NCBI RefSeq assembly: GCF_009914755.1
Contig: NC_060938.1
Length of the DNA stretch: 64,000 bases
Strand: one strand, 5' to 3'
DNA from: the human T2T-CHM13v2.0 reference genome, Homo sapiens
Shown here piece by piece: positions 4,979-20,872 of this stretch. The notes under the pieces were generated by a model. That model saw nothing but the letters and a program-made list of their open reading frames with translations. It was not told where the DNA came from and ran no database searches. The position numbers and the translations under genes are program-made. The stretch's first letter is position 1; every line of letters begins with the position of its first letter.

Positions 4979-5704
4979 TTGGAAAAAGTTATTCAGATGA
5001 AATTATGAAAGAAATTTTTGTTCCATGTTTTATTTGTGTCATTACCATAAAATATTTCTAAGAGATGAAGAAAAAATAACTTTCTAAGAAAATATTGAAG
5101 CCCTGTGTATTAGACTCAATTACTTTTTAAAAAAGTAATTAACTTTTAACTTCACAGATGTGCAACATCGAGCAGAATAAATATCTGATCAGCTTAAACT
5201 AATTTTTTAAGAATCATTCAATTACTTATCACAATATAAGATACATGTTGTCATTATTGTTGTGGGTACTGAACTCTCATCATACAGCAGAAAGTGAGAA
5301 AATATATTTTAAACAAGATATCTCAAAGTAGGGCCTACTTAGGTGTTATACCTTTGGGGTGAATTTAAAAAGTTGTATTTCAAATGCTCTGATCATGAAT
5401 GGGAATACTGAAGTGTTGGCATCTTTTGAAAACCTATTTCATTTTTTATTTTTTATTTTTTTATTTTTTTTGGGGGGGTGTTATTTTATTTTATTATTAT
5501 TATACTTTAAGTTTTAGGGTACATGTGCACATTGTGCAGGTTAGTTACATATGTATACATGTGCCATGCTGGTGTGCTGCACCCATTAACTCGTCATTTA
5601 GCATTAGGTATATCTCCTAAAGCTATCCCTCCCCCCTTCCCCCCACCCCACCACAGTCCCCAGAGTGTGATGTTCCCCTTCCTGTGTTCATGTGTTCTCA
5701 TTGT

Positions 5705-8700
5705 TCAATTCCCACCTATGAGTGAGAATATGCGGTGTTTGGTTTTTTGTTCTTGTGATAGTTTACTGAGAATGATGATTTCCAATTTCATCCATGTCCC
5801 TACAAAGGACATGAACTCATCATTTTTTATGGCTGCATAGTATTCCATGGTGTATATGTGACACATTTTCTTAATCCAGTCTATCATTGTTGGACATTTG
5901 GGTTGGTTCCAAGTCTCTGCTATTGTCAATAGTGCCACAATAAACATACGTGTGCATGTGTCTTTATAGCAGCATGATTTATAGTCCTTTGGGTATATAC
6001 CCAGTAATGGGATGGCTGGGTCAAATGGTATTTCTAGTTCTAGATCCCTGAGAAATCACCACACTGACTTCCACAATGGTTGAACTAGTTTACAGTCCCA
6101 CCAACAGTGTAAAAGTGTTCCTATTTCTCCACATCCTCTCCAGCAACTGTTGTTTCCTTACTTTTTAATGATCACCATTCTAACTGGTGTGAGATGGTAT
6201 CTCATTGTGGTTCTGATTTGCATTTCTCTGATGGCCAGTGATGGTGAGCATTTTTTCATGTGTTTTTTGGCTGCATAAATGTCTTCTTTTGAGAAGTGTC
6301 TGTTCATGTCCTTCGCCCACTTTTTGATGGGGTTGTTTGTTTTTTTCTTGTAAATTTGTTTGAGTTCATTGTAGATTCTGGATATTAGCCCTTTGTCAGA
6401 TGAGTAGGTTGTGAAAATTTTCTCCCATTTTGTAGGTTGCCTGTTCACTCTGATGGTAGTTTCTTTTGCTGTGCAGAAGCTCTTGAGTTTAATTAGATCT
6501 CATTTGTCAATTTTGTCTTTTGTTGCCATTGCTTTTGGTGTTTTAGACATGAAGTCCTTGCCCATGCCTATGTCCTGAATGGTAATGCCTAGGTTTTCTT
6601 CTAGGGTTTTTATGGTTTTAGGTCTAACGTTTAAGTCTTTAATCCATCTTGATTTAATTTTTGTATAAGGTGTAAGGAAGGGATCCAGTTTCAGCTTTCT
6701 ACATATGGCTAGCCAGTTTTCCCAGCACCATTTATTAAATAGGGAATCCTTTCCCCATTGCTGGTTTTTCTCAGGTTTATCAAAGATCAGATAGTTGTAG
6801 GTATGCGGCATTATTTCTGAGGGCTCCGTTCTGTTCCATTGATCTATATCTCTGTTTTGGTACCAGTACCATGCTGTTTTGATTACTTTAGCCTTGTAGT
6901 ATAGTTTGAAGTCAGGTAGCGTGATGCCTCCAGCTTTGTTCTTATGGCTTAGGATTGACTTGGCAATGTAGGCTCTTTTTTGGTTCCATATGAACTTTAA
7001 AGTAGTTTTTTCCAATTCTGTGAAGAAAGTCATTGGTAGCTTGATGGGGATGGCATTGAATCTATAAATTACCTTGGGCAGTATGGCCATTTTCACAATA
7101 TTGATTATTCCTACCCATGAGCATGGAATGTTCTCCATTTGTTTGTATCCTCTTTTATTTCGTTGAGCAGTGGTTTGTAGTTCTCCTTGAAGAGGTCCTT
7201 CACATCCCTTGTAAGTTGGATTCCTAGGTATTTTATTCTCTTTGAAGCAATTATGAATGGGAGTTCGCTCATGATTTGGCTCTCTGTTTGTCTGTTGTTG
7301 GTGTATAAGAATGCTTGTGATTTTTGTACATTGATTTTGTATCATGAGACTGCTGAAGTTGCTTATCAGCTTAAGGAGATTTTGGGCTGAGACAATGGGG
7401 TTTTCTAGATATACAATCATGTCATCTGCAAACAGGGACAATTTGACTTCCTCTTTTCCTAATTGAATACCCTTTATTTCCTTCTCCTGCCTAATTGCCC
7501 TAGCCAGAACATCCAACACTATGTTGAATAGGAGTGGTGAGAGAGGGCATCCCTGTCTTGTGCCAGTTTTCAAAGGGAATGCTTCCAGTTTTTGCCCATT
7601 CAGTATGATATTGGCTGTGGGTTTGTCATAGATAGCTCTTATTGTTTTGAGATACGTCTCATCAATACCTAATTTATTGAGAGTTTTTAGCATGAAGGGT
7701 TGTTGAATTTTGTCAAAGGCTTTTTCTGCATCTATTGAGATAATCGTGTGGTTTTTGTCTTTGGTTCTGTTTATATGCTGGATTACATTTATTGATTTGC
7801 GTATATTGAACCAGCCTTGAATCCCAGGGATGAAGCCCACTTGATCATGATAGATAAGCTTTTTGATGTGCTGCTGGTTTCGGTTTGCCAGTATTTTATT
7901 GAGGATTTTTGCATCAATGTTCATCAAGGATATTGGTCTAAAATTCTCTTTTTTGGTTGTGTCTCTGCCCGGCTTTGGTATCAGGATGATGCTGGCCTCA
8001 TAAAATGAGTTAGGGAGGATTCCTTCTTTTTCTATTGATTGGAATAGTTTCAGAAGGAATGGTACCAGTTCCTCCTTGTACCTCTGGTAGAATTCGGCTG
8101 TGAATCCGTCTGGTCCTGGACTTTTTTTGGTTGGTAAGCTATTGATTATTGCCACAATTTCAGATCCTGTTATTGGTCTATTCAGAGATTCAACTCCTTC
8201 CTGGTTTAGTCTTGGGAGAGTGTATGTGTCGAGGAATTTATCCATTTCTTCTAGATTTTCTAGTTTATTTACATGGAGGTGTTTGTAGTATTCTCTGATG
8301 GTAGTTTGTATTTCTGTGGGATTGGTGGTGATATCCCCTTTATCATTTTTTATTGCGTCTATTTGATTCTTCTCTCTTTTCTCCTTTATTAATCTTGCTA
8401 GTGGTCTATCAATTTTATTGATCCTTTCAAAAAACCAGCTCCTGGATTCATTAATTTTTTGAAGGGTTTTTTGTGTCTCTATTTCCTTCAGTTCAGCTCT
8501 GATTTTAGTTATTTCTTGCCTTCTGCTAGCTTTTGAATGTGTTTGCTCTTGCTTTTCTAGTTCTTTTAATTGTGATGTTAGGGTGACAATTTTGGATCTT
8601 TCTTGCTTCCTCGTGGGCATTTAGTACTATAAATTTCCCTCTACACACTGCTTTGAATGTGTCCCAGAGATTCTGGTATGTTGTGTCTTTGTTCTCATTG

Positions 8701-18599: not shown

Positions 18600-18776
18600 A
18601 TGGCGGGCGCCCCTCCCCCAGCCTCGCTGCCGCCTTGCAGTTTGATCTCAGACTGCTGTGCTAGCAATCAGCGAGATTCCGTGGGCGTAGGACCCTCCGA
18701 GCCAGGTGTGGGATATAGTCTCGTGGTACACCATTTTTTAAGCTGGTCTGAAAAGCGCAGTATTCGGGTGGGGTGA
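18600..18776 (+). pseudogene. L1 ORF0 (antisense 5'UTR ORF), truncated to 58 aa
   Basis: MAGAPPPASLPPCSLISDCCASNQRDSVGVGPSEPG... A 1-bp deletion near 18772 gives an early stop. Confidence 0.85.
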
Positions 18777-20872
18777 CCCAATTTTCCAGGTGCGTCCGTC
18801 ACCCCTTTCTTTGACTGGGAAAGGGAACTCCCTGACCCCTTGCGCTTCCCAGGTGAGGCAGTGCCTCACCCTGCTTCGGCTCCTGCACGGTGCGCGGACC
18901 CACTGGCCTGCGCCCACTGTCTGGCACTCCCTAGTGAGATGAACCCAGTACCTCAGATGGAAATGCAGAAACCACCCGTCTTCTGCGTCGCTCACGCTGG
19001 GAGCTGTAGACCCGTGCTGTTCCTATTCGGCCATCTTGGCTGTGTATACCATATTTCATTCCACTTTAATGTTTCTTCATATTCCTACCAATGATTGGTA
19101 TTATCAGGCTTTTTGATTATAGCCATTCTGATGACTGTGTAGCTCACTGAAATTTTAATTTACATTTCTCTAATGACTGACGACATTGAGCATATTTTAA
19201 TGAGATTATTGGCTTTTTAATATTTCCTTTGATAAAAACTTTTGCCAATTTTCAATTGGATTGTCTTCTTATTAATGAGCTATAAGTGTTCTGTAAATAT
19301 TTATGATTAAATCCTTAATCAGATATATGATTTGCAAGTATTTTCTTCCTGTCCGTGGCTTGTTATTTTATTTTTAACAACATCACCAAAAGTTTTCTTT
19401 TTTATGAAGTCTAATTTGTTACTTTTTTATTTCATGAAATGTGCTCTGTGTGTCTTATCTAAGAAACATTTGCCAAACCCAAGATCACTGATATTTTTTT
19501 CTTATGATTTCTCTGAAAGTTTTATAATTTAAGCTCTTAACACTTAGGTCTATAACACATTTTCACATTTTTAGCTGATTTTTATGTAGGACGTGAGGTA
19601 AAGGTGTGAGTTCATTTTTGCAGACGAATATTCAATTGTTCTAGCACCATTTGTTGAATAAACTATCCTTTCATCATTGAATTGTCTTTGCGCCTCTGTC
19701 AAAAATCAACTGATTATAAACTTGGGGGTTTTCTTCTCCTGCCTATCCTTAAGCAAATACCACGTTGTTTTGATTACTATAGCTTTAGAGTTTGTTTTGA
19801 AATGGAATGGTATAAGTTATCCTATGCTGTTCATTCTAAAAATTGTTTTAACTATACTAAGTCTTTCATGTTCAATCTATAGATAAATTTGAGGAGAACT
19901 GCCATCTTAATAATATGGAGTCTTCCAGTCTGTCAGTATGGAATTTTTCTCCACTGATCTTTCTTAATGTGTCTTCCAAAGTTTTGTGATTTACCATGTA
20001 CAGGTCTCGTATTTCTTTTGTTATATTTATTCTTAAATGTTTTGTTATTTTTATATTATGAATAAACAACTTTCTTAGTTTTACATGCAAATTTTTTGTT
20101 GCTAGTATGTACAAATAGAAGTGACTTTTACATTGATCTTTTATCCTTTGATTTTTAAAAACATTTATTAGTTCAATTATGTTTTTGGTACATATCTTAG
20201 AATTTTCTATATGTAACAGTATATGGCCTTTGAATAAAAACTGTTTCGCTTCTTCTTTTCAAATGTCTGTGACTTTAATTGCTTTTTCTTACCTGAATAC
20301 ATGGGCTAGAACCTTCTGTGTGTTAATAATAGACATTCTGGCCTTGTTTATGATCTAAAAGAAAACATTGTCTTGCACAGTTAAGTATAGTATTAGTTGC
20401 AGTTTTTCATGAATACTGTTTAGCAGATTGAGGATCTTTCCTTCTAACATTTTTGAGTTTTTATCATAAATAGGTGCTGAATTTTGCATTTTCTCTGTTC
20501 TTATTAATATCAATAATTCTACTAATTGGTTTTGAATGATAAACGAACCTTACATTCCTGGGATAAATCCCACTTGATCATCATGTATAATCCATTGTTT
20601 ATGTTTCTGGAATGTTTGTTAAAATTTATTAAGGGCTATTGCATCTGTATTTATAAAGAATATTGACCTATAGTTTTATTGTGATGGGTTTGTATGGCAT
20701 CATTTTGAGAGAGATATTAGACTCATTGATTTGGAAAGTATTTCCTTTTTTTTTTCTGAGTTTGAGTAGGATTATTTCTTCTGCAAATATTAAATAATTC
20801 ACCTGTGAAACCACTTAGTCTTGGATTTTTCTCTGTTGAAACATCTTTAATTACTAATTACTAACTCAGTTT

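What the first reader, a model, noticed from the sequence alone, without database searches (positions are those of the whole stretch)
5449..19040. Two neighbouring L1s of different subfamily share many apparently private mutations: local gene conversion / concerted evolution
Seen: identical bases at paired positions offset by ~7540 that differ from the recalled L1PA consensus: 5861/13404 (ORF2 KMWHI>KMCHI; the other L1s at ~41740 and ~48840 keep W), 6485/14028, 7511/15057 (LEVL>LDVL), 8196/15742 (QEEV>QEGV), 8495/16036, 9692/17232 (RDFV>RDIV), 9765/17305, 9819/17359, 9846/17386, 10023/17563, 10691/18227, plus the same ORF1 nonsense codon (10278/17818). Most are non-CpG. Yet the copies have different TSDs and keep interleaved subfamily differences (e.g. 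9837 a vs 17377 g, lying between two shared sites, and the 128-bp 5'UTR indel). Inference: two independent insertions were later homogenised by many very short conversion tracts, which may even have copied an inactivating stop.
Basis: partly seen in the sequence, partly recalled or inferred. Interest (0 to 1): 0.8.

Follow-up and report, generated by a model that had tools for sequence, protein, structure and literature searches.

The report
Neighbouring dead L1s sharing rare alleles

Summary
L1-A (5449-11636) and L1-B (13000-19041) are independent minus-strand insertions with different target-site duplications. They belong to different subfamily stages: A keeps the 129-bp 5'UTR segment and B lacks it.

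"Private" is overstated. Exhaustive pattern counts in the same genome find these alleles elsewhere:
- 6485G+6516T at 73 other loci.
- 5756T+5861A at 4.
- 9819T+9846A at 17 or more; all 16 fetched are old copies.
- 7511A at 27.
- 8495A and 10023G at 6 each.
- The ORF1 stop is a recurrent CpG change, present in 13 of 27 panel copies.

No other copy carries the combination. 10665C+10691C and 9765G+9819T occur only in A and B. A-B is the only cross-stage pair with many shared near-private alleles (7, against 2 or fewer). A carries an allele rare for its stage (10665C, 2 of 99) and so does B (9765G, 4 of 1168).

Tract evidence is modest. The three longest identical runs hold 6 shared alleles, but a GENECONV-type test gives only P about 0.03-0.06.

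Best reading: local two-way gene conversion (about 0.55). Main rival: a reticulate or rare shared source lineage. Ape orthologues, which would decide, could not be examined. This is a known kind of event of moderate interest.

The parts
5435..5448 (.). left target-site duplication of L1-A (TATTTCATTTTTTA)
   Evidence: Read directly. It repeats at 11637-11650.
5449..11636 (-). L1-A: a full-length, inactive L1 of the stage that keeps the 129-bp 5'UTR segment, with its A-tail at the left end
   Evidence: One search gives 95.7% identity to B over 5262 bp of body. One search shows several stops and frame breaks. One search shows 2 of 18 'deleted-stage' alleles.
10738..10861 (-). 5'UTR segment present in A and absent from B (the 129-bp-type indel)
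   Evidence: The same boundaries are seen in 9 panel copies without the segment and in I48-50. 15 panel copies with the segment carry it.
11637..11650 (.). right target-site duplication of L1-A
12985..12999 (.). left target-site duplication of L1-B (GTGTTTACCATATTT)
   Evidence: It repeats with one mismatch at 19042-19056.
13000..19041 (-). L1-B: a full-length, inactive L1 of the stage lacking the 129-bp segment. It has a short A-tail and a 17-nt non-L1 tag (13006-13022) after the L1 3' end.
   Evidence: One search shows 16 of 18 'deleted-stage' alleles. One search shows its 3'UTR 25-mer at 984 loci.
19042..19056 (.). right target-site duplication of L1-B
5696..5884 (-). candidate exchanged tract 1: a 189-bp identical run (B 13239-13427) holding 5756T and 5861A
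   Evidence: The two alleles also occur together in 4 unlinked copies. One of these is full length, lacks the 129-bp segment and has B's 3'UTR 25-mer. This suggests the direction B to A.
9673..9836 (-). candidate exchanged tract 2: a 164-bp identical run (B 17213-17376) holding 9692T, 9765G and 9819T
   Evidence: 9765G+9819T occurs only in A and B among 1168 hits. 9765G is seen in 3 of 15 panel copies that keep the segment.
9965..10178 (-). candidate exchanged tract 3: a 214-bp identical run (B 17505-17718) holding 10023G and 10025T
   Evidence: The 25-mer with both alleles occurs at 8 loci in the genome, including A and B.
10631..10730 (-). candidate exchanged tract 4: a 100-bp identical run (B about 18167-18266) holding 10665C and 10691C
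   Evidence: The exact 37-mer occurs only in A and B. 10665C is seen in 2 of 99 listed copies that keep the 129-bp segment.

Best explanation
A and B are two independent L1 insertions of successive subfamily stages that landed 1.3 kb apart in the same orientation. After both were in place, non-allelic (interlocus) gene conversion moved short stretches, tens to a few hundred bases long, between them in both directions. Each stretch carried the donor's unusual bases: its own post-insertion mutations, and minor-lineage alleles inherited from its source element. The pair now shares a combination of rare alleles seen in no other copy. It still differs at most stage-diagnostic sites and at the 129-bp indel.

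Shown here: independent insertion; stage difference; uniqueness of the combination; stage-atypical alleles in each copy.

Inferred: that the exchange happened at this locus, its direction, and its timing. Timing is roughly mid-life to recent, because the runs holding shared alleles are longer than average.
For: 1. Independent insertions. The target-site duplications differ and there is no flank homology.
2. Different stage. Across 18 strict diagnostic sites in 8110-10730, A has 2 'deleted-stage' alleles and B has 16, and the 129-bp indel also differs.
3. Cross-stage sharing. A-B has 7 shared near-private alleles. Every other pair listed with 10 or more diagnostic differences has 2, and only the same-stage pair L013-L016 has more (10). 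This is out of 406 pairs.
4. Uniqueness by exhaustive counts:
- The 37-mer with 10665C+10691C occurs at 2 loci in the genome, A and B.
- 9765G+9819T occurs in A and B only, among 1168 hits.
- None of 14 other fetched 9692T carriers has the neighbouring shared alleles as a set.
- The 4 other 5756T+5861A carriers share nothing else.
- None of 11 sampled 6485G+6516T carriers, including Q65, has 5756T/5861A. Q65, the only long one, has no other shared allele except 9544G.
- All 16 of 16 fetched 9819T+9846A carriers lack 9692T, 9765G and 10023G.
- None of 20 fetched 7511A carriers has 8024T, and 2 have 8196C.
5. Stage-atypical alleles that match the neighbour. A has 10665C, which 2 of 99 listed segment-bearing copies have, while 232 loci carry it with 10691A, including three top matches of B. 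B has 9765G, which 4 of 1168 hits on its background have, while 3 of 15 segment-bearing panel copies have it.
6. Identity runs:
- The three longest A-B identical runs (214, 189 and 164 bp) hold 6 shared alleles, and their sum of 567 was reached by 0 of 2000 uniform simulations.
- Controls with the same number of differences gave 320, 374 and 452.
- A-B ranks first of 29 and first of 21 among A's pairs in the two halves.
- Runs holding shared alleles average 91 bp against 66 bp for random identical sites, P=0.014.
- Shared-allele density in the three runs (6/567) is close to one copy's private density (about 40 in 2.7 kb).
Against: 1. A GENECONV-type permutation on 620 polymorphic sites gives only P(max)=0.059 and P(sum3)=0.028 for A-B. 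A-B is not the most extreme of the 21 pairs.
2. Many shared alleles are not random private mutations. They are alleles also seen at unlinked loci, often in older copies: 6485G/6516T, 7511A, 9819T/9846A, 9583A/9692T. In addition, 5 of 16 shared alleles match the older element C, against 10 of 127 A-private and 4 of 105 B-private.
3. Unlinked copies also show non-nested combinations of stage alleles, for example L046 versus A and the 6516 T/G pattern. The L1 source population was therefore itself reticulate.
4. 9846A lies between two diagnostic differences 46 bp apart. This needs patchy repair or a separate origin.
5. In block 6921-7984 the two copies agree at all diagnostic sites, yet private differences are as dense as elsewhere (32 in 1064 bp).
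6. No shared indel was found.
7. No orthologous or read-level data could be examined.
8. I48-50 were chosen for carrying 10665C, so their 3 of 3 is circular. The 9 other 129-bp-deleted panel copies have T in 8.
Confidence: 0.55

Rival explanations
1. There was no exchange at this locus. The L1 source elements of that era formed a reticulate population in which minor and ancestral alleles persisted across stage transitions. A and B descend from related, rarely productive sources that already carried the combination, and their adjacency is coincidence.
For: - Each of several shared alleles or allele pairs exists at unlinked loci, on both older and younger backgrounds.
- Stage alleles are non-nested even among unlinked copies.
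- An unlinked pair, L013 on contig 23 and L016 on contig 18, shares 10 near-private alleles.
- Shared alleles are enriched for matches to the older copy C.
- The formal fragment test is weak.
Against: - No third copy carries the combination in any exhaustive count.
- The two sole carriers would have to land 1.3 kb apart by chance.
- The supposed lineage would have had to acquire 14 of 18 diagnostic changes and the 129-bp deletion in parallel with the main lineage.
- Identical runs are longer for A-B than for any control pair of A.
Confidence: 0.22
2. The exchange happened once, at the moment the second element integrated. Repair synthesis or strand annealing during target-primed reverse transcription used the resident neighbour as a template, so the later element was born a mosaic.
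For: - Adjacency and same orientation.
- Private differences in block 6921-7984 are as dense as elsewhere, as expected for an early event.
- Chimaeras between new and resident L1s are described in cultured cells. This is recalled; no paper was read here.
Against: - Both elements have intact, separate target-site duplications.
- Transfers appear to run in both directions.
- The three longest runs have no difference in 567 bp, which points to later events.
Confidence: 0.08
3. Assembly or polishing artefact: reads from one copy were used to correct the other.
For: Nothing in the calls supports it. It could not be excluded, because no reads and no second assembly were available.
Against: - The copies differ at 229 body positions and by a 124-bp indel. 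Long reads should separate them.
- The shared bases are non-consensus in both copies, and several also exist as haplotypes elsewhere.
Confidence: 0.04
4. Parallel mutation at hypermutable sites in two unrelated copies.
For: The ORF1 stop (13 of 27 panel copies) and 9583 G>A (a CpG context) are recurrent changes of this kind.
Against: - Most shared alleles are non-CpG, and about half are transversions.
- Genome-wide each has a handful of other exact carriers: 6 each for 8495A and 10023G.
- Joint occurrence of a dozen such alleles in neighbours is not credible by chance.
Confidence: 0.02

Closest known systems
Homogenisation of neighbouring Alu elements by non-allelic gene conversion (Aleshin and Zhi 2010, seen only as cited in passages of PMC6598467)
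   Same: In both cases independently inserted retroelement copies lying within 10 kb exchange sequence, and the rate depends on distance and identity.
   Different: This is a single pair of 6-kb L1s, not a genome-wide Alu statistic. The tract evidence is modest, and many transferred alleles are lineage alleles rather than fresh mutations.
Recombinant full-length L1 loci flagged in pangenome assemblies (PMC13192797, passages read: 35 of 2,267 loci called recombinant)
   Same: Both concern full-length L1 copies whose sequence is a mosaic of two lineages.
   Different: Those are young L1HS/L1PA2-age loci, tested against donor groups and not against a physical neighbour. No adjacency is reported in the passages read.
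[quoted passage not shown] 1991, mouse; seen only as a reference-list entry in PMC5640379)
   Same: Gene conversion was invoked there too for L1 copies.
   Different: The paper was not read, it concerns mouse, and it concerns replacement at one site rather than exchange between two neighbours.
Concerted evolution of nearby duplicated genes by interlocus gene conversion (Teshima and Innan 2004; Mansai et al. 2011, as cited in PMC6598467)
   Same: Both involve short tracts between close paralogues and incongruence between the true history and the sequence tree.
   Different: Here the paralogues arose by separate retrotransposition, are non-functional, and remain about 4% diverged. This is occasional exchange, not sustained concerted evolution.

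Membership tests
Non-allelic gene conversion between neighbouring repeats | The two copies arose independently, not by duplication of one locus | tested here: met
   Different target-site duplications and no flank homology.
Non-allelic gene conversion between neighbouring repeats | Alleles shared by the pair that are rare or absent in each copy's own subfamily stage | tested here: met
   10665C in A is seen in 2 of 99 listed segment-bearing copies. 9765G in B is seen in 4 of 1168 hits. 10665C+10691C occurs only in A and B. I48-50, S76 and Q65 lack the remaining shared alleles.
Non-allelic gene conversion between neighbouring repeats | Site patterns that no single tree can explain: pair-specific alleles set against stage-diagnostic differences | tested here: met
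   7 shared near-private alleles against 14 of 18 diagnostic differences in 8110-10730. It is the only such pair of 406.
Non-allelic gene conversion between neighbouring repeats | Identity fragments significantly longer than expected (GENECONV-type test) | tested here: inconclusive
   Physical runs: sum of the top three is 567, reached by 0 of 2000 simulations, and A-B ranks first among A's pairs. Permutation over polymorphic sites gives only P=0.059 and 0.028 and A-B is not an outlier among 21 pairs. Runs holding shared alleles are longer than random, P=0.014.
Non-allelic gene conversion between neighbouring repeats | Change after insertion, shown by orthologous loci or haplotypes | not testable with these tools
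   No ape genomes, pangenome or reads were available.
Full-length L1 of the stage around the 129-bp 5'UTR deletion (L1PA3 by the literature) | Target-site duplications, A-tail, length of 6.0-6.2 kb and remnants of ORF1 and ORF2 | tested here: met
Full-length L1 of the stage around the 129-bp 5'UTR deletion (L1PA3 by the literature) | The indel sits at the canonical place | tested here: met
   The same gap is seen in 9 panel copies and I48-50, and the segment is present in 15 panel copies. The deletion is described for L1PA3 in passages of 10.1101/429613.
Full-length L1 of the stage around the 129-bp 5'UTR deletion (L1PA3 by the literature) | Subfamily assignment against curated consensus sequences (Dfam/RepeatMasker) | not testable with these tools
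   No repeat library is held. The label L1PA3 is inferred.
Single minor L1 sub-lineage (shared source element) | Other members with the same allele combination at unlinked loci | tested here: not met
   Searches show that each allele or pair has other carriers, and none carries the combination.
Single minor L1 sub-lineage (shared source element) | Members agree at stage-diagnostic sites | tested here: not met
   A and B differ at 14 of 18 diagnostic sites and at the indel.

The most novel reading that the evidence does not exclude
At least 8 of the shared alleles are states typical of older L1 copies: 7511A, 9819T/9846A, 9583A/9692T, 8495A and 6485G/6516T. The boldest reading not excluded is that one of the two young elements was patched by ectopic repair templated on older dispersed L1 copies, which are the most numerous templates. 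The neighbour then picked up the patches by local conversion. Old alleles would thus be 'resurrected' in young elements and spread between neighbours. This would distort L1 subfamily trees and ages more generally.
Probability: 0.12. Interest if true: 0.55.

Novelty: new member of a known kind. Interest (0 to 1): 0.3.

Why it matters
If the exchange is real, this is a clean, datable example of interlocus gene conversion between two full-length L1s of different stage. It can be tested directly with telomere-to-telomere ape genomes and human pangenome haplotypes. It also warns that divergence-based ages and subfamily calls for adjacent L1s can be wrong. A method point follows as well: comparison with a remembered consensus, or with a small panel of 'best hits', makes minor-lineage alleles look private. 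Only exhaustive counts showed that about half of them are not.

Tried and rejected
- Tandem or segmental duplication of one L1. Rejected: homology stops at the L1 ends and the target-site duplications differ.
- Parent-daughter relation. Rejected: 14 of 18 diagnostic differences and the canonical indel.
- One wider sub-lineage carrying all shared alleles. Rejected: carriers of 5756T/5861A, 6485G/6516T, 9692T, 9819T/9846A, 7511A, 8495A and 10023G are different sets of copies.
- 'Both A-type' diagnostic sites in the 3' half as conversion evidence. Dropped: B's 3'UTR combination occurs at 984 loci, and copies I50, I48 and I49 form a ladder of stages. Most such sites are therefore native.
- The third element C (contig 14, about 590 kb upstream; locus L047) as a duplicate of A or B. 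Rejected: 92.7-92.9% identity and unrelated flanks. It shares 5 of 18 alleles, which remains unexplained.
- Finding siblings or the source of B through its 17-nt 3' tag. Only B carries the tag next to an L1. The one other exact 19-mer lies in a locus without an L1.
- The break of most hits at query position 2682. It proved to be a search artefact: the fetched 3' parts align throughout.
- The alignment mis-placed the indel and was not used.
- Literature: three searches found no paper on conversion between adjacent human L1s. The phrase search gave only a reference-list entry. Paywalled papers are not covered.

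
Full report
ANATOMY

The window holds two full-length L1 elements on the minus strand. L1-A spans 5449-11636 and L1-B spans 13000-19041.
- A is flanked by TATTTCATTTTTTA at 5435-5448 and 11637-11650.
- B is flanked by GTGTTTACCATATTT at 12985-12999 and by the same sequence with one mismatch at 19042-19056.
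- BLAST of the two halves of the region finds homology only inside the elements: 95.7% over 5262 bp of body and 89.5% over 775 bp of 5'UTR. A has about 124 extra bases at 10738-10861.
- Both elements are broken by several stops and frame shifts.
- They are therefore separate insertions, not a duplication.
- The indel sits where 9 sampled copies and I48-50 also lack the segment, and where 15 sampled copies have it. Passages of 10.1101/429613 describe a 129-bp 5'UTR deletion arising within L1PA3 in the great-ape ancestor.
- The label L1PA3 for these two copies is my inference. No repeat library was available.

THE OBSERVATION

In 28 unlinked copies returned for a 701-nt query the shared alleles are rare:
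- 8196C: 1 of 27
- 8495A: 0 of 26
- 9692T: 0 of 28
- 9765G: 3 of 28
- 9819T: 1 of 28
- 9846A: 2 of 28
- 10023G: 0 of 28
- 10691C: 1 of 28

In 16 copies covering the 3' part, 5861A, 6485G and 7511A are each 0 of 16.

Two points fail. Position 10278 is T in 28 of 28 copies. The nonsense codon it belongs to (10278-10280 in A, 17818-17820 in B) is created by a CpG transition whose mutated state is present in 13 of 27 panel copies. The shared stop is therefore recurrent decay and says nothing about exchange.

ARE THE ALLELES PRIVATE? NO.

The panels were whatever the search's first look picked: 40 of 4335 candidates scored, and 27 of 24,674. They proved unrepresentative. Exhaustive pattern counts over the whole assembly give the following.
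- The 42-mer with 6485G+6516T is exact at 74 loci, B and 73 others. There are 2245 hits with up to one mismatch, mostly 6485T+6516T.
- The 118-mer with 5756T+5861A is exact at 6 loci, A, B and 4 others. A further 253 one-mismatch hits nearly all keep 5756T.
- The 36-mer with 9819T+9846A is exact at 6 loci in A's version. B's version occurs at 13 listed loci including B.
- The 7511A 25-mer occurs at 28 loci.
- 9692T occurs at 39 loci, about 24 of them in acrocentric short arms.
- 8495A and 10023G each occur at 8 loci including A and B.
- 10665C is common: 232 loci carry it with 10691A.

WHO CARRIES THEM

The other carriers are different sets of copies.
- The four other 5756T/5861A carriers have the common allele at every other shared site they cover. 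One of them is full length.
- Eleven sampled 6485G/6516T carriers include old and young copies, and none has 5756T/5861A. The long one, Q65, has no other shared allele except 9544G.
- All 16 fetched 9819T/9846A carriers are old copies, 79-94% identical to A over 600 bp. They lack 9692T, 9765G and 10023G. Both the a and the g state at 9837 occur among them.
- Of 14 other 9692T carriers, five old ones also have 9583A (a CpG change). None has the neighbouring shared alleles as a set.
- Of 20 fetched 7511A carriers (of 27), none has 8024T and two have 8196C. Most are old.
- Two combinations are exclusive to A and B. The 37-mer with 10665C+10691C occurs at 2 loci in the genome. 9765G+9819T occurs in A and B alone among 1168 hits.

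STAGE STRUCTURE

B's 3'UTR combination (5575T+5586C) occurs at 984 loci. Three full-length copies with it (I48, I49, I50) lack the 129-bp segment and are 96.9-97.3% identical to B. A is 95.8-96.0% identical to them and 96.0% to B.

Diagnostic sites form a rough ladder of stages, from the segment-bearing panel through A, B, I50 and I48/I49 to the top matches of B. For this reason I do not count B's 'A-type' states in the 3' half as evidence of conversion. The ladder is not strict: L046 and A are non-nested, and 6516 T/G cuts across stages. The source population was itself reticulate.

WHY A LOCAL EXCHANGE IS STILL THE BEST READING

1. In 8110-10730, A has 2 of 18 and B has 16 of 18 'deleted-stage' alleles, yet they share 7 near-private alleles. 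Among 406 pairs only the same-stage unlinked pair L013-L016 has more (10), and the next pairs have 3. An earlier count over 325 pairs gave a mean of 0.5 and A-B 8.
2. Pair-specific alleles and stage differences cannot fit one tree. No third copy carries the combination. The only two carriers lie 1.3 kb apart.
3. Each copy has an allele atypical for its own stage but present in the neighbour.
- 10665C occurs in 2 of 99 listed segment-bearing copies. It sits 26 bp from 10691C.
- 9765G occurs in 4 of 1168 hits on B's background, against 3 of 15 segment-bearing panel copies.
- The second full-length carrier of 5756T/5861A lacks the segment and has B's 3'UTR 25-mer, which hints at transfer from B to A there.
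4. Identity runs point the same way.
- With 229 body differences, the longest A-B runs are 214, 189 and 164 bp, and they hold 6 shared alleles.
- Their sum was reached by 0 of 2000 uniform simulations. Controls with 227-232 differences gave 320, 374 and 452.
- A-B ranks first of A's 29 and 21 pairs in the two halves.
- Runs holding shared alleles average 91 bp against 66 bp for random identical sites, P=0.014.

WHAT WEAKENS IT

- A GENECONV-type permutation over 620 polymorphic sites of seven full-length copies gives P=0.059 for the longest fragment and P=0.028 for the top three. A-B is not the most extreme of 21 pairs.
- There is no shared indel.
- Five of 16 shared alleles match the older element C, against 10 of 127 A-private and 4 of 105 B-private. 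At least eight shared alleles are states seen mainly in older copies. The shared set is therefore not a random sample of post-insertion mutations.
- 9846A sits between two diagnostic differences 46 bp apart.
- In block 6921-7984 the copies agree at every diagnostic site but carry 32 private differences in 1064 bp.
- I48-50 were selected for 10665C, so their agreement at that site is circular. Eight of the nine other deleted-stage panel copies, and S76, have T there.

RIVALS

- A reticulate or rare shared source lineage without exchange at this locus (0.22) explains the old and minor-lineage alleles. It needs an extraordinary coincidence of adjacency and a parallel acquisition of the stage changes.
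- Exchange at the moment of integration (0.08) fits the dense private differences in one block. It does not fit the two-way pattern, the intact duplications, or the difference-free runs.
- An assembly artefact (0.04) could not be tested.
- Parallel mutation (0.02) explains only the stop and 9583.

KNOWN CONTEXT

Passages of PMC6598467 state that non-allelic conversion among Alu copies is elevated within 10 kb (citing Aleshin and Zhi 2010). They also state that it depends on distance and identity, as in duplicated genes. Passages of PMC13192797 report 35 of 2,267 young full-length L1 loci called recombinant. [quoted passage not shown] Three searches found no paper on conversion between adjacent human L1s. 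The library lacks most subscription journals.

This is therefore an instance of a known process, not a new one.

LIMITS

No ape genomes, pangenome, reads or repeat library were available. Panels were small and chosen by the search tool. Pattern lists show only the first 100 places. Direction and timing of transfers are inferred.

Noticed in passing
window 13006-13022; locus L096 (G000 contig 13, around 82293073): B has a 17-nt non-L1 tag between its L1 3' end and its short A-tail. The only other exact 19-mer in the genome lies in unique DNA with no L1. This could be a 3' transduction from a source element absent from this assembly, or chance.
   Followed up: partly
locus L047 (G000 contig 14:19380800-19389800, about 590 kb upstream of the window): A third full-length L1 ('C') is older (92.7-92.9% to A and B), has unrelated flanks and lies in the opposite orientation. 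It shares 5 of 18 A/B alleles: 6485G, 6516T, 8495A, 9583A and 9692T. The excess over chance is unexplained.
   Followed up: partly
loci L013 (contig 23) and L016 (contig 18): Two unlinked copies share 10 near-private alleles in 2.6 kb and differ at 4 of 18 diagnostic sites. They are probably sisters from one minor source.
   Followed up: no
contigs 13, 14, 15, 21 and 22, first about 10 Mb (one search list): About 24 of the 39 exact 9692T 25-mers lie in acrocentric short arms. This looks like one L1 copy multiplied by segmental duplication.
   Followed up: no
window 6516 and 6485; loci L065-L075: The 6485G/6516T pair occurs on old, intermediate and late backgrounds. L046 and A are non-nested at 3'UTR sites. 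The L1 lineage of this era therefore does not look like a strict single ladder.
   Followed up: partly
one search hit table: Most hits to A began at query position 2682. The fetched 3' parts align throughout, so this is a property of the search and not of A.
   Followed up: yes
contig 23 (four loci between about 120.18 and 129.57 Mb): Four loci carry 9765G on the 9837G background with an otherwise perfect 80-mer. This could be a small X-linked sub-lineage or a set of duplications.
   Followed up: no
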